In this document: piece after piece, positions 3,569 through 53,025 of the stretch
Layout: each line of letters begins with the position of its first letter
Numbering within the stretch: position 1 is the stretch's first letter
Virus record (IMG/VR): IMGVR_UViG_3300009149_000023
Span: 1-64,000 of that record
Length of the DNA: 64,000 nt
Strand: one strand, 5' to 3'
Origin: a virus
Made by a program: the position numbers and the translations under genes
The notes under the pieces: model-generated
Seen by the model: the letters and a program-made list of their open reading frames with translations, nothing else
The model's database searches: none
What the model was told of the DNA's origin: nothing

Positions 3569-4189
3569 TTAAAATCTACTTAACTGACCGTAGCCTTTGT
3601 TCTTAACATAATAGAAATACAGACCGCCCTCCTCCTGAGAGAAAATGGCAATATTAGGCCAGCCGTTGTTCTGAAGTTTTAAAATAAGGCTTTTTTCTAG
3701 AGGAACATTTAATCCAGCTTTGTCTATATCGCTTTTATCAAATACAACAAAGCTGTACTTGTTTTTCCATATATCATCGAAAGCTGTCTTACTCGCAAGT
3801 TTTGGAGCAAATACTTTTCGATAAACTAAGTCGTTGATTCTATTAAAGAATTGTGATACCTTTGAAGAAAACTTCTTGATATCATAGCTAAGTAGGTTTA
3901 CTAAAGAAGCACCTTTTATTACAGCGTACACAGTTTTAATTCTCAGAGTCTTTTCATTCTTAGCACCTCTGTTAACAATGATAGGCTGTGCCTCTGATTT
4001 AAACTCAGTATCACTCTGATCAATTAAGGAATAGGCATTAGTAAGTTTAATATCCCCTAGAATCTTTGCTTCTATCTGCGGTATCATCGCTGATCGTACA
4101 GCATCAGAAATAAAAATAGGGATAAAGATATGTTCAGTGAGTACCTTAGGCTCCATATCTTTAAGGTTTGTTTTTGCCATCTTAGCCAT
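3569..4189 (-). CDS. Hypothetical protein
   Basis: Start moved to ATG 4189 (RBS AGGAGGA, overlapping the upstream stop); 206 aa. Confidence 0.6.
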   Translation of the reverse strand: MAKMAKTNLKDMEPKVLTEHIFIPIFISDAVRSAMIPQIEAKILGDIKLTNAYSLIDQSDTEFKSEAQPIIVNRGAKNEKTLRIKTVYAVIKGASLVNLLSYDIKKFSSKVSQFFNRINDLVYRKVFAPKLASKTAFDDIWKNKYSFVVFDKSDIDKAGLNVPLEKSLILKLQNNGWPNIAIFSQEEGGLYFYYVKNKGYGQLSRF

Positions 4190-4929
4190 TAGCGTTTTCC
4201 TCCTTTGCGGGAACAGCATTTATTATATTCACAATAAACACATTGTCTCAAATCTAAATAAGCATTAGGTTCTTGTTGCTTTGCGATGCAATCAAATAAA
4301 TGATTAATCTTAGCAATTAGTTTCTTAGCATATTCTCTTAGCTCTTCTTCTCCAAATTCAAATGTTTGCATTCGTGTTAAGGTTCTTTCTACATATAAAA
4401 GCTGCCCGCCACGAATGTGAAAACCATGATCTTCCAAAACTAGGAAGTTTGCAGCAACTTGAAAAACATCCTTCTCACGAAGAACATTACAATCACTTAC
4501 TGTCTTTATCTCTAAGATAACGTCGTTATCTAATACTCCATCAACTCTACAATGAATTTTGTATTTGTCACTATTGCGAGGAAGCTCCGTAGCAGAGAAT
4601 GTATATTTCTTCTGAATGAAGTCATGAATAGAATTACCTACATGTGCCATTAAAAGCAAATGATGGTTCTTAGTTGCCATTTCAAAGTTTACAGTAGCAT
4701 TAGTAAGTCGTAGATAAAGTAAGTTACAACAATCGCCTGCTTCGGATGCTCTAACATACTGTCGAGGCTTTCTTGTTTTTAATTCTTCCTTCATCTCTGC
4801 GCGTAACATAGCGTATAGCTTATCGCTATTAAAGTAGTTTAAAGGCGTATCTTTCTTTACAACAGTTACAGTTGTCTGTTGTGTAGGATCCTCTATGTTA
4901 GATGTAATTTTATTAAGTATATCAGCCAT
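4189..4929 (-). CDS. Cas4-like PD-(D/E)XK exonuclease with 4Fe-4S cysteines
   Basis: ASEAGDCC, GNSIHDFIQ, RVDGVL...LEIKT, QVAAN, C-terminal CVYCEYNKCC. Confidence 0.8.
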   Translation of the reverse strand: MADILNKITSNIEDPTQQTTVTVVKKDTPLNYFNSDKLYAMLRAEMKEELKTRKPRQYVRASEAGDCCNLLYLRLTNATVNFEMATKNHHLLLMAHVGNSIHDFIQKKYTFSATELPRNSDKYKIHCRVDGVLDNDVILEIKTVSDCNVLREKDVFQVAANFLVLEDHGFHIRGGQLLYVERTLTRMQTFEFGEEELREYAKKLIAKINHLFDCIAKQQEPNAYLDLRQCVYCEYNKCCSRKGGKR

Positions 4930-5422
4930 TTTTATGCACACCTGCTTTGTCTATCTCACTGATAAGGCTTTCACGAAGATAAGTAAACGTAGCAGTATAA
5001 GCTTCTTGTTCCAGTTTAGTCTGCAGGGCATTAATTTTTGCTGTAAAAGGAAACATGCATTCAATCATTGTACGAAGCACACCTTTCACTGTATTACTTT
5101 GAATCTGTGAAGGCACCTCAACTTTAAAGGATTCTTTAAGACTTTCAACTTTCTGTAGTTTATTAGCAACTCTTTTTTTAATTTTCATGCGATACTGCTC
5201 TTCGCTTTCGCCTTTAGCAGCTTGACCGAATACAGGACTTGTAGGCCCCTTTACGAGTTTCTTGCTAAGATCAATTAAAGCAAGCTTTATTATAATGTAT
5301 GCTTTAGAAGGATCCGCTCCCTTCAAAAGGATTACATCACCACTTGACGTTTTTCTTAAATCGCTTTTATTCTGCGAGTTTAATGATAGTCTATCTGAAG
5401 ATATCATAGAGCTCAGTTTCAT
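4922..5422 (-). CDS. Hypothetical protein
   Basis: Start moved to ATG 5422 (RBS GGAGGG, ATGA overlap with upstream stop); 166 aa. Confidence 0.55.
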   Translation of the reverse strand: MKLSSMISSDRLSLNSQNKSDLRKTSSGDVILLKGADPSKAYIIIKLALIDLSKKLVKGPTSPVFGQAAKGESEEQYRMKIKKRVANKLQKVESLKESFKVEVPSQIQSNTVKGVLRTMIECMFPFTAKINALQTKLEQEAYTATFTYLRESLISEIDKAGVHKNG

Positions 5423-7341: not shown

Positions 7342-7911
7342 TTATACACAATATTTTTTGATTACGTCTTCAAGCACTATAACATAATCAGCAAATTGTT
7401 GTTTAGTTTGATCAGCAAGAGGAGCGTACGCTTGTTCGAGGCTCCTAGCACATTCTATAACACGTGCTTCAAGACTTCCTATTAAATCAGAAGGATTAAG
7501 CAACCTTGCTTGAAAAGGTGTAGGCTGAAGCTTTTGTGTTAATTGACAAAAGACCTGTTTAACAGTTCTGATTACAGCAACCGCTATACATGCAACCTCA
7601 ATCTTTTCTTGGCTGAAAGTAACTCCTGCAAGTTTAGGAACATTAGGACCGCCCTTAAAGCCACCACCAGATCGTTCGCTTGATGCTTTCGCAAGTGCAT
7701 GATTAACTCTATCTTTAACAAAGTTATACTCATACACAAATAAGCCTTCAAGCTGGCCCCTAATTGTTTCGTCTAGCGCTTCTTTCTTAGCTTGCATAAA
7801 AAATGGTTTAAGTATTTCAACTAATTTTGCACAAGCAGCTTCTTTCTTTAAAGAAGGCTCAGAACGAAGGTATGTGAAAAAACCTTTAATGTTCTGTTCG
7901 AGATTTACCAT
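7342..7911 (-). CDS. Hypothetical protein
   Basis: 189 aa ORF, RBS GGAGGAG, in operon. Confidence 0.6.
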   Translation of the reverse strand: MVNLEQNIKGFFTYLRSEPSLKKEAACAKLVEILKPFFMQAKKEALDETIRGQLEGLFVYEYNFVKDRVNHALAKASSERSGGGFKGGPNVPKLAGVTFSQEKIEVACIAVAVIRTVKQVFCQLTQKLQPTPFQARLLNPSDLIGSLEARVIECARSLEQAYAPLADQTKQQFADYVIVLEDVIKKYCV

Positions 7912-8234
7912 TACTCCTCCTGATTCGTTAAGTTATGTGAATTCTGTACTGCATTAGCATTTTGCATAAGAAAAGGGTTACCTGTTGCGGGGTTTTCAAG
8001 ATGCTTCATTTCAGTTTTAATTACTACAGCATTAGCTTCTTTAAGGAATGCTAATTGAGTTTTATCTATCTCGAGTAAACCTTTCAGTAATTCTGCGAAT
8101 GCTTGCTTCTTTCTCCAATCGCCTTGAGCATTACTTATCTGCTCATAAATCATATCACGTAGTATATCAAGCTGTGCAAGCTTTTCTTCTATCTTTACTA
8201 AGTTTTTGTTAATAGTAGCATTTTCACAAGACAA
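7911..8234 (-). CDS. Small coiled-coil hypothetical protein
   Basis: TTG start with RBS AAGGAGG; helical heptad character. Confidence 0.55.
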   Translation of the reverse strand: MSCENATINKNLVKIEEKLAQLDILRDMIYEQISNAQGDWRKKQAFAELLKGLLEIDKTQLAFLKEANAVVIKTEMKHLENPATGNPFLMQNANAVQNSHNLTNQEE

Positions 8235-8246
8235 GCTGTGCCTCCT

Positions 8247-9611
8247 TTATAGACAGAAACAATCTAGGTTATTCTCTTTTAGTTTAGCGAGGGTATACCC
8301 AAACTTTCCTGAAAAGAAATTCCGGTAGAATTCTGACACCTCTTCAATTAGTTTGTTTTCATTAAGAGGCTCGGTTACATCAGTTTTTATGTTGGTAAAA
8401 TCACAATCTCTTAGTCTTGATACAAGTTTCTGTATTAATTTGTTCTCTTCCGCTGTTTTAGCAAGCACAGGATTCATATATCCTTGAAGCTCAACAATTG
8501 TTTTATTTGATATTCTAGGCTTAGTAGTTTTCTTTACTTTCTTAGCAGCACATGTTAGTAGCTTCGACAAGTAATGAAAGTTTGTATAAGACAAAACAAT
8601 TGACATATATAAAGAGATTGTGTAGTGATAGTACAAGTTTAGTTCCCTATACATGCTTGTCTTTGTATTTGTCAATGCTGCAAAGAATGGAATAGCTATC
8701 AACTCAGTTAAAGGATTAGGCTCAACAATCTGCTTAGTTAAATCGGGACTAAGTTCATATCGTTTAAGCACAGCAGGAGTAACTATCTTTTCTATTAATT
8801 GCTTTACCATCAACACAGGAAGTAATGTATCACCTTGTCCTTGCTGACTTTCGGTTGAATCATAAAAGAACATACTTTCATAAAAGAAAGCATCTGGATA
8901 AGCGCTAATAAAAATATAGTCAACAACATTCTTAGCATACACAACTAAATAAGTAATAGGGTTTTTATCACAATCTAACACAGGTAATACATTTTCTAAG
9001 ATGTTTACGTATGTATCAATACAAACTGTTTCGGGACTGTCACCTGTTACAAATTTTAGATACTGCCAGAAAGGTTTGTTTGAAGTTGCAGATGCAAACA
9101 CTTTAATCTGAATTAGTTTATATAACTTGTTTAGGATTCCTTCTTTGGATAAAGTCTGTAAAAGGTTTGCAAAGATCTTACTATGAATATCTTTATCCGG
9201 TCTCAAGTCTGTACTATAAAATATAGTATAGAATTTTAAAGACACGCTTGCCGCTAATACAGCTAACATTTCACTTGTGTCAAAAAATATCTGTTTCTTT
9301 TTACTTCTTTGCACAATCTCCAGTTCCCTAACTACCTTAAATAGATCTTCTTTTTTACAGAATTCGAGTAAGCCCCATTTAATCTGAAGAAAGGCTTTAT
9401 ATAAAGCAGCACCATCTCTTGTCTTTACATAGTCAAGAAATGCTTTGTCCATTAAGTTGCTAATGTATTTTGATTTCTCTAATATACTGTCAACTACAGG
9501 AAAGATGTTTTCCCTTTGGTTCCTGATTGGCACATTTTTAATCTTGTAGATGTGCTCTGTACCTTTCACAGTAATGACTAACCTTTTTTCTTCGTTTAAA
9601 GAAATTCTCAT
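8247..9611 (-). CDS. Putative sigma-like promoter-specificity subunit of phage RNA polymerase (AR9 gp226 / phiKZ gp68 class)
   Basis: 454 aa; ILNKLYKLIQIKVFASATSNKPFWQYLK, VLPVLDCDKNPITYLVVYAK and NFHYLSKLLTCA resemble, in order and spacing, segments I recall from AR9 gp226; needs profile search. Confidence 0.6.
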   Translation of the reverse strand: MRISLNEEKRLVITVKGTEHIYKIKNVPIRNQRENIFPVVDSILEKSKYISNLMDKAFLDYVKTRDGAALYKAFLQIKWGLLEFCKKEDLFKVVRELEIVQRSKKKQIFFDTSEMLAVLAASVSLKFYTIFYSTDLRPDKDIHSKIFANLLQTLSKEGILNKLYKLIQIKVFASATSNKPFWQYLKFVTGDSPETVCIDTYVNILENVLPVLDCDKNPITYLVVYAKNVVDYIFISAYPDAFFYESMFFYDSTESQQGQGDTLLPVLMVKQLIEKIVTPAVLKRYELSPDLTKQIVEPNPLTELIAIPFFAALTNTKTSMYRELNLYYHYTISLYMSIVLSYTNFHYLSKLLTCAAKKVKKTTKPRISNKTIVELQGYMNPVLAKTAEENKLIQKLVSRLRDCDFTNIKTDVTEPLNENKLIEEVSEFYRNFFSGKFGYTLAKLKENNLDCFCL

Positions 9612-9639
9612 TAAGTATTCCTCCTAATTATGTAACAAA

Positions 9640-10482
9640 CTAAGCTTGTTCGAAATCTGATCCAGTGAATGCTGAAACCATATCACCAAAACTGGCTGCG
9701 GTATCTGCTATCTCAGATGCTGCAAAAACTTGTTGTGCTATAAAGATTCCTTCGCATACTACAACGCAAGTAGCAGCTACTGTACCGACGCCTGCTGCCA
9801 TAGCAACTACGCCCACAACACTTAATACAACGGGAAGGTTTTGAATCCCCAATCTTTGAAATAGTTGATTGAAGTAATTAAGAACGGGGGAAATGAAGCT
9901 CCAAAGTGTTTTTAGGACTTTTAAAGTGAACATAAGGACAGGTTTTACTAGGTCCCACAATACTCCTGCTATTGCTTTTAGTACTTCTCCTCCTTTTGCT
10001 AACACATCTTTGAAACCTTCTAACAAGTTCTTACCAGTACCCTCCTTAAACATTTTATTCATTTCATCATGAAATTTTTCTAACTGCGTAACTAGTTTCT
10101 TTTGTTCCGCAGCTTGTTCCTTACCAAAGGTTCCTAACAACACAATTGTTGCCGATAGATATGCGATCCTATCGTTAATAGTCATATCTTCTTGTGTGAA
10201 GTTAATTAAGTCAATTGTTTTAACATCTTTCGCTTTCTTATCTATTTTCTTAAGACTAGAGTTAAGATCAGAATCAAATTTAGAAGCAAAGCGTCTGACA
10301 TTCTTTTTAAACTTAGGGTCAACATTCTTTGCATTAGCGACAAAATCTAATACCATACAGAGGATAGCAACACTTTCCTCAAGTTTCTTAGAAGGAGTAT
10401 TTTCCTTGTAAAGAGCATCTATAATCTTTTTCATATCAGGATCTGTTTTTCTACCAAACAGTTCTTTTAAGTCGACTTGCAT
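9640..10482 (-). CDS. Membrane-segment protein, possible internal head/ejection protein
   Basis: Start moved to ATG 10482 (RBS GGAGGA); NLLEG site; amphipathic helices and hydrophobic LPVVLSVVGVVAMAAGVGTVAATCVVV. Confidence 0.55.
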   Translation of the reverse strand: MQVDLKELFGRKTDPDMKKIIDALYKENTPSKKLEESVAILCMVLDFVANAKNVDPKFKKNVRRFASKFDSDLNSSLKKIDKKAKDVKTIDLINFTQEDMTINDRIAYLSATIVLLGTFGKEQAAEQKKLVTQLEKFHDEMNKMFKEGTGKNLLEGFKDVLAKGGEVLKAIAGVLWDLVKPVLMFTLKVLKTLWSFISPVLNYFNQLFQRLGIQNLPVVLSVVGVVAMAAGVGTVAATCVVVCEGIFIAQQVFAASEIADTAASFGDMVSAFTGSDFEQA

Positions 10483-10498: not shown

Positions 10499-12295
10499 TT
10501 AAGCTGTCGCTGTGGCGCTAGGACCACCAGATGTGAGAACGGGGCTAATGCCGCCAAGAGTTGAGCTTCCATTAACTACCAAGTTACCATCGATTGTTAC
10601 ATTACCTTCGTTGATTATGTTAGGAGCCTTTATCTTAATGGTATCGGGAGCTTCTATCAAAGCATTCCCTGTTGCCATGTTAAAGATAAGTTTATGAGCT
10701 GTTGTTCCTGACTTTAGCTCAATGATTTGATTTTGCTCATCAAGTCTTAACTGATGACCTGCTGCTGTTATAGCAGTAATGACGCTGTCCTTCTCACTAA
10801 TTTCTATCATATGCTCACTAGGAGTCATTAATCTTATAAAGCCATCATCTTCATGAGCATTCATATAAAACACATAGCCTTCAGGTAATTGTACTTGAGC
10901 ATACTTCTTGTCTTCATGCTCATTCATTTCAAATCTATATTCTGTAGGTGTCTGCATTTTAATGAACTTATCATCATCATGATCATTTATATAAAAATAA
11001 GAACCTGCCGGGGTTTGAAGTTGGATATACTTCTTATCATCATGCTCGTTCATTTCAAATCTATAGTTAGTGGAAGTAAGCACTTTAATAAATCTATCGT
11101 CGTCATGTGTATTCATAAAGAATAAGTAATTCTCATCTGTTTGCATTTGAATAAACTTTTTATCGTCATGTGTACACAATTCAACACGATAGCCTTTTAG
11201 AGGATCACCTTTCTGATCAACCTCATCCTCTATGCCACCTTGGTCTGAGTCAGGTTCATCGATAGCTAAGTATTTAACTCGATCTTTAGGATCCTCTTGA
11301 CCTATCTTCATATCAGGATCTTTCGTTCTTTCAGACCCTCTGATGCCATTGCCACCTTTAATCCTAATAGTAGATTCTTGTCCGCCTTTGTTTACCCAAG
11401 AACCTTTCTGTCCACCTTTACCGCCACCGAGAGCATTATCTTCGTTTGTCTCATCTTCATTATTATCTTTGTTTTCTCTAGGCTGCCCTTGCTCATCTTC
11501 AGCAGCTTCAAAGCCTTCTCCAATAGGCCCTTTATCTGAGCCAAAAGGTTTAGGCGCATCTTCTCTAGGAGCCCACAGTTCAATATTCTTTCTATCTTTG
11601 TGCTCGTTAACTTCCAAAAAGAAGTTTATGTAAGATCGAAGCATTAAGCGTTCGTTATTGTCTGAAAGAAGAATTCTATGACCATGTGGTGTCTTCATAA
11701 GATAAAATTCTTTCTCTGGTGAGCATTTATTCTTTACTTCTTGTATAGTTGTATGTTTTATAGAGTTAATGCCGAAAGGCAGATACCTACACTGATTAGG
11801 ATCACCATCTTCAAACATTACAAGTATAAAAGCATTTCTGGCAGGAACAGCAAATGAGCCAAAGTCATCATATACTTTTTGATCTTTTCTAGCATTAGGG
11901 TCTTGCTTACCATCAGCCATTTCTTCTGAAGATTGGTGAGGCTGAGGTTTAACTTCTTCACCTAAGACTTTAGTTCCTGATTCTTCTTTAGTGTCAGAAC
12001 CTTCTGTTATCTTATTTCCAAGTAGTTTACCAGCATCACAAACTTTACTTGTATTCTGACTTCCATATAAAAATACAGGATAAGCATATATACCAACAGT
12101 CTCTTCAATGTCCATCATAAGTTCAGGAATGTATACTTCAATTCTGCCTTCTCGCTCTAAAGGCTCATTACCTTCCTTCTCTTCGTGATTGTTTAAAACC
12201 TTAGCTTTATACAGGCCGAAGTATCGCTTTTGCTCCCATCCAGACAGTAAGAAGTTTTTTCTATAGTCTTGGTTATCATCATCACGCCAATTCAT
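10499..12295 (-). CDS. Baseplate central spike/hub, gp5/VgrG-like
   Basis: N-terminal OB fold YFGLYKAKVLNN...EGRIEVYIPEL, VPARNAFILVMFEDGDPNQCRYL, KTPHGHRILLSD; beta repeats; C-terminal NVTIDGNLVVNG. Confidence 0.8.
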   Translation of the reverse strand: MNWRDDDNQDYRKNFLLSGWEQKRYFGLYKAKVLNNHEEKEGNEPLEREGRIEVYIPELMMDIEETVGIYAYPVFLYGSQNTSKVCDAGKLLGNKITEGSDTKEESGTKVLGEEVKPQPHQSSEEMADGKQDPNARKDQKVYDDFGSFAVPARNAFILVMFEDGDPNQCRYLPFGINSIKHTTIQEVKNKCSPEKEFYLMKTPHGHRILLSDNNERLMLRSYINFFLEVNEHKDRKNIELWAPREDAPKPFGSDKGPIGEGFEAAEDEQGQPRENKDNNEDETNEDNALGGGKGGQKGSWVNKGGQESTIRIKGGNGIRGSERTKDPDMKIGQEDPKDRVKYLAIDEPDSDQGGIEDEVDQKGDPLKGYRVELCTHDDKKFIQMQTDENYLFFMNTHDDDRFIKVLTSTNYRFEMNEHDDKKYIQLQTPAGSYFYINDHDDDKFIKMQTPTEYRFEMNEHEDKKYAQVQLPEGYVFYMNAHEDDGFIRLMTPSEHMIEISEKDSVITAITAAGHQLRLDEQNQIIELKSGTTAHKLIFNMATGNALIEAPDTIKIKAPNIINEGNVTIDGNLVVNGSSTLGGISPVLTSGGPSATATA

Positions 12296-12382
12296 TAGTA
12301 ACCCTCCAAAGGAAAAAGCACAACATAAAAAACTTATGTGTGTATAACGTAGATATATATCTGAACTTGACTACCTGAAAGA

Positions 12383-16720: not shown

Positions 16721-16737
16721 TCAATTGTTGTGTTTTT
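16721..16737 (-). promoter_or_regulatory. Candidate phage-RNAP promoter motif AAAAACACAACAATTGA
   Basis: Intergenic, sense to the leftward operon; 26/27 nt identical to the copy at 32994-33020. Confidence 0.65.
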
Positions 16738-19751: not shown

Positions 19752-19767
19752 AAAACACAACAAGTGA
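19752..19767 (+). promoter_or_regulatory. Candidate phage-RNAP promoter motif AAAACACAACAAGTGA
   Basis: Directly after a terminator, ~35 nt before ATG 19798; 21/23 nt identical to 32986-33008. Confidence 0.65.
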
Positions 19768-21073: not shown

Positions 21074-21721
21074 ATGACGTTTGCATTTGATATTGATGGA
21101 GTTATTGTTGATGTTAATAAAACAGTGCAGCAATATCTCAGAAAAACACATAACCTAACATACAAACAATTAGGTGTACAATATATCTGGCCTAAGCGTT
21201 TGTCTGAGTTTGAAGGTGTATTTGATGAGATGATTCGTCTTGATATAGAAAGGTTCATCTTTCAATCTTTCGATTATATACAAGACAGCATTTACCGTAC
21301 AGCCATCCTAAGCTCAATGAAGACTTTAGGCAAACAAGGACATAAAATTTACATAATTACCAATAGGCCCATTTATACAAAAGATGTTACACGACAGTGC
21401 TTTCCTGAAGATGTAGCTGAACATATAGAAGATTTCTTATTCTTTGAAGAAGGCATAGATACAGAAGGTAATGAAGACCTTTTTAAAATTAAAAGATGTC
21501 AATCGGTTAATGTTGACGTTTTAATAGATGATCGTGCTGATAATATAAAAGCTTTCGCAGAAACTACTAAGCATGGATTTTGGTTTGTCGATGAGATTCC
21601 TGAGGCAGATAGAATCAATGAAATTACAAAGTTAAACTCTGTTATTGTGTGTGACAGCAGTAACTTAAAGAAAAAACTCAGAGAGGTAATATACAATGTC
21701 AACTCGTCTGAAAGACACTGA
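21074..21721 (+). CDS. HAD-family 5'(3')-deoxyribonucleotidase-like protein
   Basis: FDIDGVI motif I, IITNR motif II, K, LIDDRADN motif IV. Confidence 0.8.
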   Translation: MTFAFDIDGVIVDVNKTVQQYLRKTHNLTYKQLGVQYIWPKRLSEFEGVFDEMIRLDIERFIFQSFDYIQDSIYRTAILSSMKTLGKQGHKIYIITNRPIYTKDVTRQCFPEDVAEHIEDFLFFEEGIDTEGNEDLFKIKRCQSVNVDVLIDDRADNIKAFAETTKHGFWFVDEIPEADRINEITKLNSVIVCDSSNLKKKLREVIYNVNSSERH

Positions 21722-24569
21722 AAAATTCTGTGCCAAACTGATCCCCGTTACCTCTCCTTCTGTATTTAGAAAATTAGGAGAAACTGTAACCTTTGATGAG
21801 AAAGGTATTCTTTCTTATGAGATCTTTGGTACTAATGAGAATGAAAGAAGGGTAAGACACTCTTTCATTAATCTAAAGAATGTTCAAGTTCTTCATCCTA
21901 TTCTATACGATAAACTGAAAATTAATAGTAAGTTAAAAAACATTCTATATAATAAAGGTTCTTACATTATTAAGGGTGGCGAGCTTATTGCTGACCCAAA
22001 TGGAGATACAGGCATATCATTTTTTAAGTCTATTGTAGGAAGATATAAGCCTGAATCAGCTGCTATTCAAAAAGTCTTTGATATTATTAAAGTATCACCT
22101 TTTGCTTTCTTAAATAAGATTATTGTGATACCTCCTGCATTCAGAGAGACTGGAAAAGAATTAGTTTATAGAACCGTAACGGATCTCAATAAAGCATATA
22201 CTTCTTTAATTCGTGCAGCTAATGCAATTGCGGCTTCGGGAGACGCTGATGCTTACTCGGCTGAAATACAAAGGCTCATGGAAAATCTATATATTGCTAT
22301 TAAAGCACAAATTGGTTCCAAAGACGGAATATCAAGATCAAATATTCAAGGAAAACGTTTAGACTTTTCAGGTCGCGCTGTTATTACAATGGACCTGTCC
22401 TTAAAAATAGATGAATGTATTCTTCCTTTAGTTATAGCATTAAAAATGTTTGAACCTTTCATAATTGCTGAGTTTAAGAAACAGCCCGGACGTAAGCCAG
22501 GCGACTATTTAATTTATGATATGTTACAAGATGTTTATGATAATCTTGATGCCAGTGACTATTATGAAGAAGTTAAGAAAGTAATAGATTCAATTGCCGC
22601 AACACGCCTTGTGCTGCTTAATCGTGCACCTTCTCTACATAAACTATCACTGCTTGCATTCAAACCGCGCATAACCTTAGATAAGGTTATCAAACTAAAT
22701 CCTTTTATACTTGATGGATACAATGCTGACTTTGATGGTGACCAGATGGGTGTATACAGTCCTTTGACAAGACAAGGACAAGAGGAAGCTAAAAAACTTC
22801 TACCTTCCAATAACTTATTTAATGTAGCTTCAAGAAAGATATCAACACAGCTTTCTGAAAACTTTGCGTTATACTTATATTATAGTACTGCATGGGAGTC
22901 AACTTCTGCACCCGCAAGTAAGTTAGACACTAATAAAAAGAATCTTGATTTCTTTAGACGTGTTACACTTAAAGGAGAAACAGCTACCGTAGGCAGATGG
23001 TTATTAACTCTTGCTATTAGAGAAGCTGTCTTGGATGATAAGTATCCTATAATTAAGCAGCCTATAAATAAATCAATATTTAGTCAAATGTTATCTGATA
23101 TCTTTATGAAGTATGGTAAGAATGCTTTGATAGGTGTGCTGTATAAAGTTAGAGATTTGACCATGGAATATGGTTCATTACTACCAGACGTACTTCCTGA
23201 AATAAAACTTAGTGACACTGCTAAGAAAGAGCTCCTTCCTAAAATAGAAGAATTAAAACATACTCCTGATGTATGGGATGATATTGTAAGTATAGTAAAA
23301 AGAGATATAAGAAATCATCAAAAGAACTTATACATTCTTCTTGAATCTAAAACAACTAAGCTTGACTGGAATAAGATTACACAGGCGTTAGTTGCTAAAG
23401 GCTATACTCAAACACTTTCAGGTGAGAACAAATTAATGACATCAAGTCAGCTCGATGGTTTAACACAAGAAGAACTTTTAGTGGATACTTCTAATGCTAG
23501 AAGAGGTATTGTTGACAGAGCTCTTATGACAGGTAAGCCTGGTTATTTAACCAGAAAGCTAATTTTTGCATTAGGCTCAACATTACTACATCCTACATTA
23601 AAAGATTGTGGAACTAGCAGAACACTAAAACTAAGAGTAAACAAGAATCATGTTAATAGCTTAGTAGGAAGATATGCTTTATTAAATGGTAAGCTAGTTT
23701 TACTTGAGAAAGCTGATGCTGAAAAATTAGTAGGAAGTACAATCAATGTAAGGTCTCCTGCCTACTGTAAGAGTAAACAAATATGCCATACTTGTTATGG
23801 CATGCTAAGCAAATATGTGAACTCAAAGAACATAGGTATTATAGCTTCTCAAGCTATAGGCGAGTTAGGTACTCAGATGATTATGAGAACCTTCCATGTA
23901 GATACTCTTGTTACTACAGCTAAAAAGACATTACCTACTATTAAAGAATTTAAGTTAACAGATGCAGGTTATGTAGCGATGCAGCCTGTGGTAATACATT
24001 TAAAGAAAGACGATATAGAAGAAAGGTCTGACTTTAGTATAGTAACAAAAGCTATTACTGTCAACGATGCACGATACGATTTTGTATTTACTGTTTCCTT
24101 ATTAGCTGTCGAAGACTCAAGAGAAACAGCAACTACACTAGAGTTAGCATTTCCTAAAGGAGCTATTCCTCTATTCGGAGGCTCAACAGGACATCTAAGG
24201 GATAAGATATCTGAAGTTGATGGTTTATTTGAATTAAGTCAGAAACTAAAAATTAGAGATGCCACAGCATTACTAGAAAGACTATTTGATGAATATTATA
24301 CGCTTGGTAAACTAGATCATGTACATTTTGAATTGTTTATAGGTGCTATGATGAGAAGTAAAGCTAAGCCTGAAATTCCTTTCAGATTATCAACTGATAC
24401 AGCTTACCAATTAGTGCCTATCTCAAAAGTAGCACTTTATGAAAGTCCTCAACTTGCTTTTATATTCCAAAGACAGTCAGATGCTATTATTGCAGGACTA
24501 TATCAAGATACTCTTGAAGAAGACCCAGAAGAACGAACCAAATCCGATTTAGAAGAATATTACTACTAG
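21696..24569 (+). CDS. rpoC: DNA-directed RNA polymerase beta-prime subunit (unsplit, phage-encoded)
   Basis: GKRLDFSGRAVI, LNRAPSLH, catalytic NADFDGDQM, bridge helix ARRGIVDRALMTGKPGYLTRKL, DCGT/RSPAYC/ICHTCYG zinc site, trigger loop IGELGTQMIMRTFH. Confidence 0.97.
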   Translation: MSTRLKDTEKFCAKLIPVTSPSVFRKLGETVTFDEKGILSYEIFGTNENERRVRHSFINLKNVQVLHPILYDKLKINSKLKNILYNKGSYIIKGGELIADPNGDTGISFFKSIVGRYKPESAAIQKVFDIIKVSPFAFLNKIIVIPPAFRETGKELVYRTVTDLNKAYTSLIRAANAIAASGDADAYSAEIQRLMENLYIAIKAQIGSKDGISRSNIQGKRLDFSGRAVITMDLSLKIDECILPLVIALKMFEPFIIAEFKKQPGRKPGDYLIYDMLQDVYDNLDASDYYEEVKKVIDSIAATRLVLLNRAPSLHKLSLLAFKPRITLDKVIKLNPFILDGYNADFDGDQMGVYSPLTRQGQEEAKKLLPSNNLFNVASRKISTQLSENFALYLYYSTAWESTSAPASKLDTNKKNLDFFRRVTLKGETATVGRWLLTLAIREAVLDDKYPIIKQPINKSIFSQMLSDIFMKYGKNALIGVLYKVRDLTMEYGSLLPDVLPEIKLSDTAKKELLPKIEELKHTPDVWDDIVSIVKRDIRNHQKNLYILLESKTTKLDWNKITQALVAKGYTQTLSGENKLMTSSQLDGLTQEELLVDTSNARRGIVDRALMTGKPGYLTRKLIFALGSTLLHPTLKDCGTSRTLKLRVNKNHVNSLVGRYALLNGKLVLLEKADAEKLVGSTINVRSPAYCKSKQICHTCYGMLSKYVNSKNIGIIASQAIGELGTQMIMRTFHVDTLVTTAKKTLPTIKEFKLTDAGYVAMQPVVIHLKKDDIEERSDFSIVTKAITVNDARYDFVFTVSLLAVEDSRETATTLELAFPKGAIPLFGGSTGHLRDKISEVDGLFELSQKLKIRDATALLERLFDEYYTLGKLDHVHFELFIGAMMRSKAKPEIPFRLSTDTAYQLVPISKVALYESPQLAFIFQRQSDAIIAGLYQDTLEEDPEERTKSDLEEYYY

Positions 24570-24578
24570 GAGGCAGCT

Positions 24579-27500
24579 TTGTATCTGCAAAGATTTAGAT
24601 TATTTAGTTCACGAGACCCTAAACTCCGGTTTGAAGACGAAGGTTATAGAATATTTACTATAGTGGAGAATTCAACTTTTCCTAAACTATATCCTAAGTC
24701 AGGCCTCATGAAAGAAGATTGCCGTATTGTAGTAATCCCTAAAGTTCAGACAAAGTTTGGTTTAGTGCAGACTGCTAAATTAAAATCCGATTACTCCGCA
24801 ACTAAATTAGTTTCGTATATTGATACACATACTATTAAAGAATCCGATAAGAATGCTTATATAGACTTAACACCTGTAATGGACTTTATGCGCCCACGTT
24901 TAAAAAGGTTTGATTCAGATGTTGCCTACAGAACATTTATGGCTATGATGGATAACCTAGATACAGGTCCAGGTAAAAAAGTTTTACTTTATATGCTTGA
25001 TATGACAAGGCCTGCAGCATTACGATTAACAGAGATGTATATAGCTGTATTGATTTATGCTATGATGCGAAGAAAGACTATGCCTTTCCATACAGTAATG
25101 TTTGGTGCTATTGGCGGTGGTAGTAAGTTTAGAAAGATTTATGAAGCTGACGATTCGTTAAACAGTTATCAAAAGATTATATCAACTATGAGGACTGAAC
25201 TTTCACATATGAGTTCAGGTGCCATGTCTATTGCAATGGCGCAGCAAATTAGCGAAGACTTAGATGTGCCTACAGAAAAGGTAATTCCTATTATAAAGAC
25301 TCTAATAAGTGATACACCCCCTGAGCAAAGATCTAGACTTATAAACCTCGCAAATGCTGATCCTAAGAAGATTAGGGAAATAGTAGTTAAGACTTCTCAG
25401 AAGATGACAGGGCATACTATCATTAAAGATCTACCTTTACAGCTAAAGAAAGTTGAAATGAAAACTTTGTCTGCTGATATGCCTAGTGCACAAATTACAC
25501 AAGTAACGGAGTTAACAAAAGCTAAGCAACCTGTTACTTCACTTGATATAAGTTCAGATCTTAATACACATTTAGTTATTCCTAGGATGACTTTAAACGT
25601 TAATTCAGTATCATTAGCTCCTTTAGTTAATCATGTTACTGGTAAAGAGTTTTCAACTACGTTGGATGTTAGCCCTAATCCTAAGTTTTCAGGAACTAAC
25701 CTTATTAAAGTTAAGATTGTTGATTCCAAGACAAATAAAACACAGGACATCGAAGCAATTATCCCTAACTTAAAGTCTGATGGATCCTTTAAGATGTATG
25801 GACAAACATATACACTTAAGAAACAAATTGCGTCACTTCCTGTAGCAAAGTATAAAGAGAATGAGATTTCTATTGAAACATTACTGACTAACTTTAAGCT
25901 TGTTCGCAAAAAAGTAGGGCATAAAGTTTATATCAATTTCAGTAAGTATACTTCACTGCCTTTATTCTATTATTTAGCTGCTGTTATAGGACCAGAAGCT
26001 CTTTGTAAGAAACTAGACATCGAGGTCACTAAAACAGGAAAAGGTTTAACACTGCAACCTAAAGGTGGCTTAGGTTCAATAATTTCTCCAAAGATGCTAG
26101 AATCAACTGACAAAGACTACTTTAAAAAAGAGTTAGAGAAGATGATAGGTAACAGAGGATTAATTCACTACTTAGTAGAGAAGCTTCCAGAAAAAGCAAT
26201 AGATCCTAGCACGCTTGATTTACTTAAAACATCTAAGATGCCAACTAATTTTATTGATATGATTATATTTGCAGCAACAAAACTGGTTAAGGATTTACCG
26301 GAAGCTCCTAATGACCTACATCATAGAAGAATAAGATCAACAGAAGTAGTTAATAAGATATTCTTATCTGGCTTAGATAGAGCACTTAGTACTTATAAAC
26401 AGGATGTAGCTTCTGGTAGAGTAGATGCTGACATTGTAATTGATCCTAACTTTGTTATGAATACTTTGAGAGAAACGGGTGCTATAGACTTTGCGGAAAG
26501 TAAACCTAATCCTGTAGCAGAAATTGCTAGTAAGAATAAAGTAAATTATTCAGGCTATGCTACGTTTAGATCAGAGAATACTCCTATAGCTTTTAGAGAT
26601 ATTCATCCGTCACAGAAAGGATTACTTGATCCAATCGAAACAGCAAAAGATTCTTCAGTGGGAGATCAATTATATTTAACAGTATCTCCTAACATAATGT
26701 CTAATAATAATCTTTTTGTTCCTACAAGCAACCCTGATTCAATGCTAGGCTATACAACTAGCTTAACTCCTTTTCTTGAATCTTCTGCTACCGCACGTAC
26801 AAACATGGGAACCTCTCATACAAAGCAAGCAGTACCTATAGTTGAGTCTGAAGCACCTTTTGTTATGAGTGGTATAGAAGGTGTCTATAAAGACATTACT
26901 TCTGACAAGTTTATTACTAAGTCACCTGTAGACGGAAAAGTTACTTCTATTAAGAAAACTTATATGACTATTACAGACAAGGCTAAAAAGACACATAAGA
27001 TCAATCTTGTTAAACCGCATATTACTACAGGAACAGGTATAGCAATAAATAATGTACATGCACCCGTTGTAAGTGTAGGTGATAACGTAAAGGTAAAGGA
27101 TATCCTAGCTGAAAACTTTACCTTCAAAGGCGGCATTCTTGCTATAGGAAAGAACTTGCTCTGTGCCTTTGCTTTATACAATTCTACTAATTACATGGAT
27201 GGTGTTATCATATCATCACATTTAAAAGAGAGCATGGCTGTTGAAGAGATTAGTAAAAAAGTAGTGTATGTAAATCCTGAAACAGATAGAATACTTCATT
27301 TTCATTCTAAGCTAGGACCTATTGGAAAGAATACAACGCTTATTAAGTATGATACTTCTGCTTTTAACATAGCAGCTTATGAAAGGTCAGTAGTTACAGT
27401 AAAAGGAAATGCTATAGGATCATTAGAAGCTATTGTATTAAAAGCACCTAAGAAGTCCTTAGCAGATGAGCTGTTACGAAAACTTCCAGACATAGATAAG

Positions 27501-28430
27501 AGTAATATAACTGTTATCATTAAGGATGACATAGATAAAACCGTCGAGCTTACATTTGAAGTTAAGTTACTGAATACTCTTAAAGTTGGAGACAAGTTTG
27601 GTAATAAGCACGGAAACAAAGGTGTTATTAATCACATCATTCCTGAAGAAGAAACTCCTTACATTGTAGAAGATGGAAGATGGTTAGATTGTGTATTAAA
27701 TCCTTTGGGACTGTTTGGTCGAACTAACTGGGGACAGTATAAAGAATTATTGGTGTCTGCTATATTGTATGAGTTTAACAAACAGTTTGTAGAGATATAC
27801 AAAGTCAAAGGAAGGAAAGCAGCTTCTGAATATTTTGCTTCTTCTGCTGTTAAGTTAAACAAGATTAAAGATTATGACAAACTAATTCTTTCTAGGCTTA
27901 ACAGGATGTCTGACAAACAGATGAAGGAATTAGTTACTAGCATTAAAAAGGAAGAGCAATTACTTCCTATACACATTCCTCCATTCAAGAGTGCTTCGTA
28001 TAGTGATCTATTAGCATTAGGAGAACAGCTAAATGTAGTTAAGACTATTAGATGTCCTGAACTTGGTAAAGATATTAGAGCATTAGTAGGTTACATGTAT
28101 TTCCATAGGCTAGAGCATTTACCTGAGTACAAATTAAATGCTAGGTCTACAGGTGTTTATAGATACAGAACTAAGCAGCCTGTTGCTGGAAAGAAGATGA
28201 TGGGTGGACAAAGATTTGGAGAAATGGAAAATTGGTGTTTACTTTCACATGATTGTCCTACAATAATGCAAGAGTTTAAGACAGTGCAGTCTGATGACTT
28301 TGATTATAAGAATAAAGTTATAACACAGATACTAAATGGTGAAGTTCCTGAAATGCCTGCAACTAAACAGCATACTGCAATTTACGATATGTTCAAAGCT
28401 TTAATGACCGGGTTGCATATAGATATTTAA
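24579..28430 (+). CDS. rpoB: DNA-directed RNA polymerase beta subunit (unsplit, with long N-terminal extension)
   Basis: FRDIHPSQKGLLDPIET, RTNMGTSHTKQAVP, GDKFGNKHGNKGVI, LNPLGLFGRTNWGQ, LEHLPEYKLNARS, GGQRFGEMENWCL; TTG start with RBS GGAGG. Confidence 0.96.
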   Translation: MYLQRFRLFSSRDPKLRFEDEGYRIFTIVENSTFPKLYPKSGLMKEDCRIVVIPKVQTKFGLVQTAKLKSDYSATKLVSYIDTHTIKESDKNAYIDLTPVMDFMRPRLKRFDSDVAYRTFMAMMDNLDTGPGKKVLLYMLDMTRPAALRLTEMYIAVLIYAMMRRKTMPFHTVMFGAIGGGSKFRKIYEADDSLNSYQKIISTMRTELSHMSSGAMSIAMAQQISEDLDVPTEKVIPIIKTLISDTPPEQRSRLINLANADPKKIREIVVKTSQKMTGHTIIKDLPLQLKKVEMKTLSADMPSAQITQVTELTKAKQPVTSLDISSDLNTHLVIPRMTLNVNSVSLAPLVNHVTGKEFSTTLDVSPNPKFSGTNLIKVKIVDSKTNKTQDIEAIIPNLKSDGSFKMYGQTYTLKKQIASLPVAKYKENEISIETLLTNFKLVRKKVGHKVYINFSKYTSLPLFYYLAAVIGPEALCKKLDIEVTKTGKGLTLQPKGGLGSIISPKMLESTDKDYFKKELEKMIGNRGLIHYLVEKLPEKAIDPSTLDLLKTSKMPTNFIDMIIFAATKLVKDLPEAPNDLHHRRIRSTEVVNKIFLSGLDRALSTYKQDVASGRVDADIVIDPNFVMNTLRETGAIDFAESKPNPVAEIASKNKVNYSGYATFRSENTPIAFRDIHPSQKGLLDPIETAKDSSVGDQLYLTVSPNIMSNNNLFVPTSNPDSMLGYTTSLTPFLESSATARTNMGTSHTKQAVPIVESEAPFVMSGIEGVYKDITSDKFITKSPVDGKVTSIKKTYMTITDKAKKTHKINLVKPHITTGTGIAINNVHAPVVSVGDNVKVKDILAENFTFKGGILAIGKNLLCAFALYNSTNYMDGVIISSHLKESMAVEEISKKVVYVNPETDRILHFHSKLGPIGKNTTLIKYDTSAFNIAAYERSVVTVKGNAIGSLEAIVLKAPKKSLADELLRKLPDIDKSNITVIIKDDIDKTVELTFEVKLLNTLKVGDKFGNKHGNKGVINHIIPEEETPYIVEDGRWLDCVLNPLGLFGRTNWGQYKELLVSAILYEFNKQFVEIYKVKGRKAASEYFASSAVKLNKIKDYDKLILSRLNRMSDKQMKELVTSIKKEEQLLPIHIPPFKSASYSDLLALGEQLNVVKTIRCPELGKDIRALVGYMYFHRLEHLPEYKLNARSTGVYRYRTKQPVAGKKMMGGQRFGEMENWCLLSHDCPTIMQEFKTVQSDDFDYKNKVITQILNGEVPEMPATKQHTAIYDMFKALMTGLHIDI

Positions 28431-28529
28431 AAATCCCCGTGTAATTTCTCATAACAGTAGTATTTGTTATTATGGACAAATTAAACCCAGTTTTTATGTA
28501 CGAGGGTGCAAGATTAAACTTAGAGGAAA

Positions 28530-29445: not shown

Positions 29446-29453
29446 GGTAGTTT

Positions 29454-32995: not shown

Positions 32996-33012
32996 AAAAA
33001 CACAACAATTGA
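32996..33012 (+). promoter_or_regulatory. Candidate phage-RNAP promoter motif AAAAACACAACAATTGA
   Basis: Intergenic, upstream of the tail-fibre operon; followed by small hairpin AAGTAGTAC-ACTTTA-GTACTACTT. Confidence 0.65.
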
Positions 33013-42775: not shown

Positions 42776-42790
42776 AAACACAACAATCGA
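42776..42790 (+). promoter_or_regulatory. Candidate phage-RNAP promoter motif AAACACAACAATCGA
   Basis: Intergenic, ~40 nt before ATG 42827. Confidence 0.6.
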
Positions 42791-49907: not shown

Positions 49908-49922
49908 AAACACACTAATTGA
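49908..49922 (+). promoter_or_regulatory. Variant of the candidate promoter motif, AAACACACTAATTGA
   Basis: Two mismatches to AAACACAACAATTGA; intergenic, upstream of the unit ending in the major capsid gene. Confidence 0.45.
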
Positions 49923-53010: not shown

Positions 53011-53025
53011 AAACACAACAATTAG
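53011..53025 (+). promoter_or_regulatory. Candidate phage-RNAP promoter motif AAACACAACAATTAG
   Basis: Intergenic, ~30 nt before ATG 53054, upstream of baseplate/terminase/tape-measure genes. Confidence 0.6.

What the first reader, a model, noticed from the sequence alone, without database searches (positions are those of the whole stretch)
8247..9611. AR9 gp226-like sigma/promoter-specificity subunit in a phage with a T4-like head
Seen: 454-aa helical protein with blocks LNKLYKLIQIKVF...FWQYLK, LPVL....PITYL and NF..LSKLLTCA. From memory these parallel AR9 gp226 (LNKLYKIIYSRVF...IWTYLK, FPKL...VISYL, NF..IPEILSCA), which is of similar length; this recollection must be verified. Known: gp226 directs the AR9 non-virion RNAP to late promoters containing AACA and reads template-strand uracils. 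Inference: this phage uses an AR9-like late-transcription factor, implying either a second, non-virion RNAP outside the window or pairing with the unsplit enzyme here, and raising the question of uracil-containing DNA.
Basis: partly seen in the sequence, partly recalled or inferred. Interest (0 to 1): 0.8.

Follow-up and report, generated by a model that had tools for sequence, protein, structure and literature searches.

The report
Sigma-like factor for phage RNA polymerase
This gene in an uncultured giant phage encodes a relative of the sigma-like promoter-recognition subunit of the Bacillus phage AR9 RNA polymerase, and comparison with related phages suggests that it serves a phage-encoded polymerase whose two large subunits are not split into pieces.

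Summary
ORF 8247-9611(-) encodes 454 aa with a strong ribosome-binding site, and all the quoted sequence blocks are present. It is a true homologue of AR9 gp226. Against PDB sequences the only significant match is 7S01 chain A (E 3.6e-7). A profile of 75 metagenomic relatives hits only g226 in the AR9 genome (E 9.6e-18, near full length). An AlphaFold model (pLDDT 88) matches only AR9 gp226 (E 2.5e-9) and phiKZ gp68 (E 8.7e-6) in the PDB.

The phage is a fragment of an uncultured jumbo phage (73 kb, estimated 25% complete). It has a T4-type head and unsplit beta' (957 aa) and beta (1283 aa).

More distant uncultured relatives carry two unsplit beta'/beta sets. Their sigma-like gene lies beside the "class b" beta' in 40 of 48 loci. 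The window's beta' falls in class b.

A conserved motif, AAACACAAYAAWT, precedes structural operons here and at orthologous sites in relatives. It shares an AACA core with AR9 late promoters.

Uracil DNA is not supported. The thymine-excluding Val206 of gp226 is Pro here, and complete relatives encode thymidylate synthases.

Binding to the polymerase, promoter recognition and transcription start sites are all inferred. None was shown.

The parts
8247..9611 (-). Gene for the gp226/gp68-family sigma-like protein (454 aa, P0001).
   Evidence: ORF. PDB phmmer 7s01_A E 3.6e-7. Family profile against the AR9 genome hits g226 only, E 9.6e-18. Foldseek 7um0_A and 7s01_A E 2.5e-9, 8que_B E 8.7e-6.
9620..9625 (-). 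Shine-Dalgarno AGGAGG, 8 nt before the ATG. Only 28 nt separate this gene from the one upstream, and no promoter-like element is seen directly before it.
   Evidence: Sequence read.
8895..9140 (-). Sigma region-2-like core (residues about 158-239, equivalent to gp226 184-264). This is the best-conserved part of the family.
   Evidence: Alignment. Domain limits of gp226 from PMC9209446 section 8. Invariant columns cluster at 151-301. Family alignment.
9054..9083 (-). Segment SNKPFWQYLK (residues 177-186), aligned to the gp226 '2.1bis' helix SDVVIWTYLK. Trp and Tyr (gp226 W208 and Y210) are kept. Val206 is Pro180 and Ile207 is Phe181.
   Evidence: Roles of the gp226 residues from PMC9209446 section 10.
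8802..8894 (-). Linker (residues about 240-270), equivalent to the sigma-finger-like segment of gp226 (265-294). It has low confidence in the model (residues 248-258 have pLDDT below 50).
8250..8801 (-). C-terminal domain (residues about 271-454), aligned to the gp226 CTD (295-464).
   Evidence: The profile alignment covers query 36-426 against gp226 44-459. Foldseek gives a full-length alignment.
7911..8234 (-). Small gene (107 aa) directly downstream. It is kept next to the sigma-like gene in all four close relatives. Its function is unknown and it has no family match.
   Evidence: tblastn 36-50% identity in L003-L006, adjacent in each. No PHROG match.
21696..24569 (+). Unsplit RNAP beta' (957 aa), of paralogue class b.
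   Evidence: Pfam Rpb1_2 E 6.4e-30 and Rpb1_5 E 1.5e-20. NADFDGD at 343-349. In the tree it lies inside clade b, SH-aLRT 97.
24579..28430 (+). Unsplit RNAP beta (1283 aa).
   Evidence: Pfam Rpb2_6, Rpb2_7 and Rpb2_3. It matches the longer beta next to class-b beta' in G005 far better (E 5.2e-92) than the shorter beta (E 2.3e-37).
16721..16735 (-). Promoter-like motif AAACACAACAATTGA at the head of the minus-strand operon that runs through baseplate genes to the sigma-like gene.
   Evidence: The same motif lies at the orthologous place in L003 (3511) and L005 (2078).
19753..19767 (+). Promoter-like motif (1 mismatch) after a terminator-like hairpin, ahead of the gene run 19780 to beta'/beta.
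32998..33012 (+). Promoter-like motif (exact) ahead of 33066 and the large Ig-like/decoration-like genes.
42776..42790 (+). Promoter-like motif (1 mismatch), 37 nt before gene 42827. It overlaps the first bases of an opposite-strand ORF call.
49908..49922 (+). Weaker motif copy (2 mismatches) ahead of 49927 and the major capsid gene 50573.
53011..53025 (+). Promoter-like motif (2 mismatches) ahead of 53054 and the T4-baseplate-like gene 53893.
   Evidence: Related sites stand before the 53893 homologue in L005 (10462) and L006 (2281).

Best explanation
The gene encodes a member of the gp226/gp68 family. These are the sigma-like fifth subunits of jumbo-phage multisubunit RNA polymerases.

Shown: homology over nearly the whole length, the same two-domain fold, and conservation of the region-2-like core, including the Trp and Tyr of the gp226 '2.1bis' helix.

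Inferred: the protein docks on the phage's own unsplit beta'/beta enzyme (21696-28430), as gp226 docks on the AR9 core. It would then direct that enzyme to promoters carrying AAACACAAYAAWT, which stand 20-60 nt before the ribosome-binding sites of virion-gene operons. The invariant AACA in that motif would be read as in AR9, by the region-2-like domain on the melted template strand.

Because the thymine-excluding valine of gp226 is replaced, ordinary thymine DNA is the more likely template.

By analogy with more distant relatives, the full genome probably also encodes a second, 'class a' unsplit RNAP. That enzyme would start the programme.
For: (1) phmmer against the PDB finds only AR9 gp226 (7s01_A, E 3.6e-7, query 92-407 against chain 109-440). 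A 5-sequence profile extends the alignment to 36-426 against 44-459.

(2) The PHROG family phrog_25005 'RNA polymerase' matches at E 2.5e-7. tblastn against 50,697 phage records finds only 7 AR9/PBS1-type records.

(3) HMMER against 1.84 billion representatives finds 79 clusters. A profile of 75 of these proteins, with no AR9 sequence among them, finds one place in the 251-kb AR9 genome, g226, at E 9.6e-18 over model positions 14-451 of 484.

(4) For the model (pLDDT 88.4), Foldseek against the PDB gives three matches at E <= 0.001, all sigma-like subunits: 7um0_A and 7s01_A at 2.5e-9 and phiKZ gp68 8que_B at 8.7e-6. A fourth gp226 chain, 7um1_A, follows at E 0.34, and the first unrelated entry scores 0.73. 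In BFVD, 13 matches reach E <= 0.001. All 13 are proteins of 464-581 aa aligned over about their full length; the six that carry names are phage proteins, three of them from the jumbo phages RP12, Eowyn and Yaphecito, and seven carry no name in the tables at hand.

(5) Link to the polymerase. In 48 IMG/VR loci around a sister subfamily of the factor, 40 hold a beta', and it is always class b. In 32 of the 48 loci it is co-directional within 2.5 kb downstream. 25 of 25 searched records have beta', and 24 of 25 have two. Three complete genomes each have one factor, two beta' and two beta. The window's beta' lies in clade b (SH-aLRT 97). In the close relative L003, the sigma-like gene and a beta' N-terminus (55% identical) keep the window's arrangement.

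(6) Promoter. There are 7 matches with at most 2 mismatches in the 73-kb record, against 0.6 expected (30 simulations, maximum 2). Five lie in the 4.5% of the record that is intergenic, and a sixth lies at an ORF edge. All six point at the gene downstream. P(>=5 of 7) is 1.1e-7. The motif recurs at orthologous positions in L003, L005 and L006, although the flanks have diverged.

(7) The sister subfamily has its own enriched upstream motif, AGAACAAA(WWATAAA): 45 seen against 2.6 expected, in 36 of 48 loci. Both motifs share AACA with the experimentally defined AR9 late promoter AACA-(6N)-T-A/G (PMC5312081, passages). Each motif is absent from the other group.
Against: No experiment or structure shows that this protein binds the window's beta'/beta.

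In the window the factor gene is 12 kb from beta' and on the other strand, inside a run of baseplate and virion genes. It is not next to the polymerase, as it is in most of the sister subfamily.

If the factor is needed for the promoter of its own operon (16721), another route must first express it. None was found.

The plain 8-mer AAACACAA is not over-represented overall (7 seen against 6.1 expected). Only its placement and its extended form are.

The spacing from AACA to the downstream T-purine differs from AR9 (7 nt against 6 nt), and no transcription start site is known.

The window's beta' is not clearly closer to AR9's non-virion subunits than to its virion ones (E 1.8e-22 and 4.7e-19 for virion; 1.4e-14 and 2.1e-10 for non-virion).

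Five cultured phages that match the window's beta' (one, YerA41, with beta' annotated as two genes; D181 unannotated) have no member of the family (0 of 5). Such enzymes therefore do not always use this factor.
Confidence: 0.72

Rival explanations
1. It is a faithful functional copy of AR9 gp226. On this reading the phage has deoxyuridine DNA, and the factor reads template-strand uracils at AACA promoters for a separate, split non-virion RNAP encoded outside the window.
For: The protein is homologous to gp226. There is an AACA-containing upstream motif. Only about 25% of the genome is in hand, so other genes cannot be excluded.
Against: gp226 Val206 excludes the thymine methyl group and is absolutely conserved in the close gp226 homologues of dU phages (PMC9209446 section 10). 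It is Pro here and Ala in P0002. In the family alignment, Val at that column is seen only in AR9 and P0077. The three complete relatives with the factor encode ThyX (G018 and G019) or a ThyA-like protein (G005), and AR9 has neither. In relatives the factor travels with an unsplit class-b beta'. No split set was seen among the 25 records, apart from class-b genes divided in two in some of them.
Confidence: 0.07
2. It is an RNAP-associated family member whose main role is assembly or stability of the enzyme, as reported for phiKZ gp68. On this reading the upstream motif is read by another protein or by the second polymerase.
For: [quoted passage not shown] In the sister subfamily the AACA-type motif stands between the factor gene and class-b beta' (31 of 47 loci). 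Class b could therefore itself be a target of another enzyme.
Against: The most conserved part of the family is the region-2-like DNA-reading core, including the aromatic residues that contact the promoter in AR9. The two subfamilies of the factor have two different motifs, each absent from the other group. That is what one expects if the factor sets specificity.
Confidence: 0.13
3. It is packaged with the polymerase as part of a virion RNAP. It would be made late among structural genes and injected to start the next infection.
For: The gene sits in an operon with a gp25-like baseplate protein, a spike-like protein and a tape-measure-like protein. beta'/beta follow a head-tail-adaptor-like gene. 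The operon is headed by the same motif as the capsid and baseplate operons.
Against: In AR9 and phiKZ the family member belongs to the non-virion enzyme (PMC7598289, passages). No proteome data exist for this phage. In the sister subfamily the factor gene is usually preceded by a different, TATATAT-type element (30 of 47 loci), as the early-transcribed AR9 g226 is (annotated early promoter).
Confidence: 0.08

Closest known systems
Bacillus phage AR9 gp226 (PDB 7S01, 7UM0, 7UM1), promoter-specificity subunit of the non-virion RNAP
   Same: Similar length (454 against 464 aa). The two proteins align over nearly the full length at about 26% identity in the best segment. They share the two-domain fold. 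The region-2-like core is conserved, with W208, Y210, Y246, Y263 and P264 kept as W182, Y184, Y221, Y238 and P239. The associated promoter motif contains AACA.
   Different: Val206, the uracil selector, is Pro180, and Ile207 is Phe181. The partner genes in the window are unsplit beta' and beta, against four split polypeptides in AR9. The phage has a T4-type head. The candidate promoter is a longer conserved block of about 13-15 nt, with a 7-nt rather than 6-nt gap to the T-purine. The gene lies in a virion-gene operon, whereas AR9 g226 has its own early promoter.
Pseudomonas phage phiKZ gp68 (PDB 8QUE chain B, 7OGP), fifth subunit of the non-virion RNAP
   Same: Same fold family (Foldseek E 8.7e-6, full-length alignment). 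BFVD matches include proteins of three named jumbo phages (RP12, Eowyn and Yaphecito; their kinship to phiKZ is recalled, not from a call).
   Different: About 10% identity, with no sequence-level match. By the literature, phiKZ late promoters are TATG-type (PMC5312081, passages). The phiKZ core is split.
mReC phages (Weinheimer and Aylward 2020, PMC7481178): uncultured Caudovirales with full-length beta and beta'
   Same: Unsplit beta and beta', a Gp23-type capsid (PF07068), a PF03237 terminase, and metagenomic origin.
   Different: In the passages and sections I read, that paper names no specificity factor. A term search of its main text found 'sigma' and 'promoter' 0 times. It does not describe two polymerase sets per genome. 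Its supplements were not visible to me. Membership of the window's phage in their clade was not tested against their sequences.
Bacterial sigma-70-family factors
   Same: gp226 is described as having sigma2-, finger- and sigma4-helix-like elements (PMC9209446 section 8). The window protein aligns through those elements.
   Different: No Pfam sigma domain matches. Sigma chains appear only at non-significant Foldseek scores (6tye_F at E 2.1).

Membership tests
gp226/gp68 sigma-like RNAP subunit family | Significant sequence or profile similarity to gp226 over most of the length. | tested here: met
   E 3.6e-7; aligned over 36-426 against 44-459; family profile against the AR9 genome gives a single hit, g226, at E 9.6e-18; phrog_25005 at E 2.5e-7.
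gp226/gp68 sigma-like RNAP subunit family | Two-domain helical fold (NTD with a sigma2-like part, finger-like linker, CTD). | tested here: met
   Model pLDDT 88.4. Foldseek finds 7um0_A and 7s01_A at E 2.5e-9 and 8que_B at 8.7e-6, with full-length alignments. Global TM is only 0.42-0.43 with rmsd of about 17 A, consistent with a different domain orientation. No per-domain superposition could be made, because the VIA libraries were absent.
gp226/gp68 sigma-like RNAP subunit family | Encoded in a phage that has its own multisubunit RNAP. | tested here: met
   beta' and beta lie at 21696-28430. 25 of 25 searched records of the sister subfamily hold beta'.
gp226/gp68 sigma-like RNAP subunit family | Physical subunit of the RNAP holoenzyme. 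| not testable with these tools
   Only gene-neighbourhood evidence is available. This needs co-purification or a structure.
gp226/gp68 sigma-like RNAP subunit family | Required for promoter-specific initiation. | not testable with these tools
   Candidate promoters were found only computationally. No RNA run holds the stretch.
AR9-type deoxyuridine-reading gp226 (narrow sense) | Val206 in the 2.1bis helix, absolutely conserved in the close gp226 homologues of dU phages. | tested here: not met
   The aligned residue is Pro180, and Ala in P0002. The rule comes from PMC9209446 section 10.
AR9-type deoxyuridine-reading gp226 (narrow sense) | Genome with dU in place of dT, and no thymidylate synthase. 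| tested here: inconclusive
   The own 73-kb record has no ThyX or ThyA, but it is only about 25% of the genome. Complete relatives have ThyX or a ThyA-like protein, and AR9 has none.
AR9-type deoxyuridine-reading gp226 (narrow sense) | Partner is a split four-polypeptide non-virion core. | tested here: not met
   The only beta' in the record is a single 957-aa ORF. In relatives the factor is linked to unsplit class-b beta'.
Bacterial sigma-70 family | Pfam Sigma70 region 2 or region 4 domains. | tested here: not met
   Pfam gives no sigma family even at E up to 10.

The most novel reading that the evidence does not exclude
A large, wholly uncultured group of T4-headed jumbo phages runs an AR9/phiKZ-style two-polymerase programme, but with unsplit beta'/beta enzymes. 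A 'class a' enzyme would read TATATAT-type promoters, and a 'class b' enzyme plus the gp226-like factor would read AACA-core promoters. On this reading the sigma-like factor and its AACA-reading mode predate the splitting of jumbo-phage RNAP genes. The split enzymes of phiKZ and AR9 would then be derived forms of an unsplit phage RNAP, not relics of an ancestral multi-piece enzyme. Some relatives already show class-b beta' divided into two ORFs (about 780 + 240 aa, or 528 + 686 aa).
Probability: 0.3. Interest if true: 0.85.

Novelty: new variant of a known kind. Interest (0 to 1): 0.68.

Why it matters
gp226 and gp68 are the only known specificity factors of phage multisubunit RNA polymerases. 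So far they have been described only with the split enzymes of AR9-like and phiKZ-like jumbo phages (PMC7598289 and PMC13282480, passages).

Finding the family beside unsplit beta'/beta in T4-headed uncultured phages links two phage RNAP lineages that have been treated separately. At 50% identity the family has 79 clusters, and its only cultured matches in my three tblastn searches were AR9/PBS1-type phages.

The finding gives these polymerases a candidate initiation factor and candidate promoters. It also offers a thymine-DNA counterpart for testing how template-strand -10 recognition works without the uracil requirement.

For annotation, about 80 'hypothetical protein' clusters can now be named.

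Tried and rejected
Complex prediction. I submitted beta' residues 1-420 (alignment A4) with the factor (alignment A3). The result was no verdict, with a score of 0.00 in both runs. It is not used as evidence either way.

RNA evidence. No RNA holder is listed for window:12500-22000. The five DNA runs are held only as contigs, so read laying was not used and no start sites could be read.

Search in IMG/VR with the close-family alignment A2. 215 pattern matches were found, and none was confirmed. The metagenome scan gave four loci. Their contigs could not be extended, because the records are not held. Whether L003 carries a full unsplit beta' is therefore unknown beyond its first 155 residues.

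Cultured phages that match the window's beta' (RHph_TM30, YerA41, Carin-5, Vibrio D181 and Va2). The family profile found nothing in any of the five. The positive control on AR9 worked.

tblastn of a central family member, P0023, against phages found no match.

The sigma-70-type promoter scan of 28000-34000 found 19 sites against 26.3 expected. There is no enrichment.

TATATAT-type elements in the own record. Only two intergenic AGATATATATCT sites were seen (12353 and 65130), which is too few to call.

Assigning the window's beta' to AR9's virion or non-virion set gave mixed E-values and was not resolved.

The pocket residues of AR9 beta-N (gp105 R363 and K375) could not be mapped, because gp105 was not detected with the window's beta.

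Gene-content check for dU metabolism. The PHROG and Pfam scans of about 57 ORFs found no dUTPase, dCTP deaminase, Ugi-like protein or thymidylate synthase in the 73 kb. Many small ORFs were not scanned.

Chance similarity or an unrelated helical-repeat protein was rejected. The next PDB sequence match has E 1.1, and the first unrelated fold match has E 0.73.

Literature. No description of a gp226/gp68-like factor with unsplit phage RNAP was found in searches, or in the passages read. Supplements are closed, and subscription journals are largely absent from the library, so this is not proof that nothing is in print.
Full report
**What is there.** The minus-strand ORF 8247-9611 encodes 454 aa. 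Its ATG is preceded by AGGAGG at 9620-9625, and only 28 nt separate it from the upstream gene. The AR9 blocks recalled from memory are also correct. They appear, aligned to the window's blocks, in HMMER's alignment to PDB 7s01_A and in the AR9 g226 translation.

**Homology.** Pfam gives nothing. PHROGs gives phrog_25005 'RNA polymerase' at E 2.5e-7.
- phmmer against all PDB sequences gives one significant match, 7s01_A/7um0/7um1 (464 aa, 'DNA-directed RNA polymerase subunit'), at E 3.6e-7. The next match has E 1.1.
- A profile of five close homologues aligns query 36-426 to chain 44-459.
- tblastn against 50,697 phage records finds only 7 AR9/PBS1-type records, under the gene annotated 'non-virion RNAP subunit'.
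- An exhaustive HMMER search of 1.84 billion representatives finds 79 clusters at E <= 0.001, mostly 460-530 aa.
- A profile of 75 of these, with no AR9 sequence among them, hits exactly one place in the 251-kb AR9 genome. That place is g226, at E 9.6e-18 over model positions 14-451 of 484.
- An AlphaFold2 model built on that alignment has mean pLDDT 88.4. Its only weak stretch is at 248-258.
- Foldseek against the PDB returns 7um0_A and 7s01_A (E 2.5e-9, about 480 aligned columns, 20% identity) and phiKZ gp68 8que_B (E 8.7e-6). A fourth gp226 chain, 7um1_A, follows at E 0.34, and no unrelated entry scores below E 0.7. Global TM is only 0.42-0.43, as expected for two domains on a flexible linker.
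- BFVD gives 13 matches at E <= 0.001, all 464-581 aa. Six carry names and are phage proteins, three of them from the jumbo phages RP12, Eowyn and Yaphecito. Seven have no name in the tables at hand.

**Anatomy against gp226.** Fraser et al. 2022 (PMC9209446, sections 8 and 10 read) give these features for gp226:
- an NTD at residues 1-264, with a sigma2-like part at 184-264;
- a finger at 265-294;
- a sigma4-like helix at 295-316;
- a CTD to residue 464.

They report that V206 and I207 of the '2.1bis' helix line the -10U pocket, Y210 stacks on -9G, and S245/Y246 affect double-stranded templates. They also report that V206G lets the enzyme accept thymine.

In the alignment, confirmed in an 83-row family alignment, the mapping is:

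| gp226 residue | window residue |
|---|---|
| S203 | S177 |
| V206 | P180 |
| I207 | F181 |
| W208 | W182 |
| Y210 | Y184 |
| S245 | T220 |
| Y246 | Y221 |
| Y263 | Y238 |
| P264 | P239 |

The Trp is kept in 76 of 83 rows. The Val206 column is mostly Tyr or Phe, and Val is seen only in AR9 and P0077. The low-confidence stretch of the model (248-258) falls in the finger-equivalent linker.

**The phage.** The window is the first 64 kb of a 73,096-bp linear IMG/VR record, estimated 25% complete. It is therefore a fragment of a jumbo phage. It encodes:
- a Gp23-type capsid;
- a T4-type portal and a PF03237 terminase;
- a T4-type prohead protease and baseplate protein;
- a gp25-like baseplate protein;
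- an unsplit beta' at 21696-24569 (957 aa, NADFDGD at 343-349);
- an unsplit beta at 24579-28430 (1283 aa).

This profile fits the 'mReC' phages of Weinheimer and Aylward 2020 (PMC7481178, sections 6 and 8 read). A term search of that paper's main text found neither 'sigma' nor 'promoter'.

**Which polymerase does the factor serve?** A subfamily alignment (A5) recovered 48 IMG/VR loci on contigs up to 322 kb. Of 30 records asked for, 25 were held. All 25 have beta', and 24 have two beta' genes: a class of about 890-960 aa and a class of about 1000-1036 aa. In some records the longer class is divided into two ORFs.

Three complete genomes (277-322 kb) each have one factor gene, two beta' and two beta.

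In the 48 loci, 40 contain a beta', and its best match is always class b. Its position relative to the factor gene is:
- co-directional within 2.5 kb downstream in 32 loci;
- 2.9-5.4 kb downstream in five loci;
- divergent upstream in three loci.

Of the eight loci without a beta', four have less than 600 nt of sequence after the factor gene.

A maximum-likelihood tree was built from 38 rows: ten genomes with two paralogues each, 12 library proteins chosen by me from the 120 listed, five bacterial outgroups, and the window. It separates clade a (SH-aLRT 95) from clade b (97). The window's beta', together with P0086, is the deepest branch of clade b. The window's beta also matches the class-b-linked beta far better.

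In the close relative L003, whose factor is 57% identical, gene order is collinear with window 1-21.7 kb and ends in a beta' N-terminus that is 55% identical.

The own record holds only one beta'. A class-a set elsewhere in the missing three quarters of the genome is an inference.

**Candidate promoters.** Upstream regions in the record share AAACACAACAATTGA.
- With at most 2 mismatches there are 7 matches, against 0.6 expected.
- Five lie in the 4.5% of the record that is intergenic, and one lies at an ORF edge (42776). All six point at the next gene, 20-60 nt before its ribosome-binding site. The seventh (8589) lies inside the factor gene on the other strand and looks like chance.
- The sites head the baseplate-to-factor operon (16721), the run leading to beta'/beta (19753), and capsid, baseplate and decoration-like genes.
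- Variants stand at orthologous positions in L003, L005 and L006. Together they give the consensus AAACACAAYAAWTDR.

The sister subfamily has a different enriched element, AGAACAAA(WWATAAA). It lies within 200 nt after the factor gene in 31 of 47 loci and before it in 2 of 47. A WATATAT element lies before the factor gene in 30 of 47 loci and after it in 8 of 47.

AR9 late promoters are AACA-(6N)-T-A/G, and AR9 early promoters are AAATATATATTAT-(6N)-G (PMC5312081, passages). AR9 g226 has an annotated early promoter. The shared AACA core and the two-motif layout parallel AR9. No start site has been mapped in these phages, however, and the spacing differs.

**Uracil.** Nothing supports dU DNA. 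The selector valine is absent. ThyX (G018 and G019) or a ThyA-like protein (G005) is present in the three complete relatives and absent from AR9. The own fragment carries no informative nucleotide-metabolism gene.

**Verdict.** The protein is a real and correctly recognised remote homologue of gp226. It most likely acts as the specificity subunit of the unsplit class-b polymerase encoded 12 kb away and reads an AACA-core promoter on thymine DNA. Function, binding and start sites are inferred. The finding is new mainly in its context, namely unsplit enzymes, a T4-type head, and a large family known only from uncultured phages. I found no description of this in five literature searches and the passages read.

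Noticed in passing
window 7911-8234 (-): A 107-aa helical protein directly downstream of the sigma-like gene is kept next to it in all four close relatives (36-50% identity). It has no family match. It could be a partner or regulator of the factor.
   Followed up: partly
records G011, G012, G013, G015, G016, G018 and G022: In some relatives the class-b beta' is divided into two ORFs (about 780 + 240 aa, or 528 + 686 aa in G022). These are natural intermediates between unsplit and split phage RNAP genes.
   Followed up: no
L005 about 560-640, 1530-1580, 8470-8520 and 10400-10450: A repeated element of about 40 nt, CTCAAGAAAACCATATCCTTTAGGTTATGGTAGTTCAA, contains a hairpin. It occurs in four intergenic regions of this relative, one of them just before its sigma-like gene. 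It is absent from the window's motif set.
   Followed up: no
window 12346-12360 and record 65125-65140: The palindromic AGATATATATCT occurs twice in intergenic DNA: before the spike-like gene 10499-12295, and right after the 65115 motif. TATA-rich elements also stand before the spike homologues in L003 and L004.
   Followed up: partly
window 30942-30980 and 31160-31198: A direct repeat of about 38 nt (AGCAGCTGAAGCCCTCATAAGTTTTTATATATTTTCACAT) lies 218 nt apart in the small-gene region.
   Followed up: no
record 70540-70580 and 71800-71840 (outside the window): A repeated element, AATCCAGGACATAACAAATACATCTGGAAATCTTAA, precedes two genes, and TTGACATAAT occurs twice before gene 71974.
   Followed up: no
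window 4189-4941 (-): A Cas4/RecB-like exonuclease (phrog_1706, E 3.8e-23) sits in the same minus-strand gene run.
   Followed up: no
window 10499-12295 (-): A 598-aa protein has many HDDDKFIK(M/L)QTP-type repeats, and its position suggests a baseplate central spike. It is conserved at 40-61% identity in L003-L005. It has only sub-threshold Pfam matches.
   Followed up: no
L020 (Cobetia phage Carin-5) 4541-5131: This cultured phage with unsplit beta'/beta has a gene annotated 'RNA pol sigma factor' directly before beta' and no member of the gp226-like family. Unsplit phage RNAPs may therefore use different kinds of specificity factor.
   Followed up: partly
window 33011-33036: A hairpin, GAAGTAGTAC...GTACTACTT, begins at the last bases of the 32998 motif. 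GTAGTAC also follows the 16721 motif.
   Followed up: no
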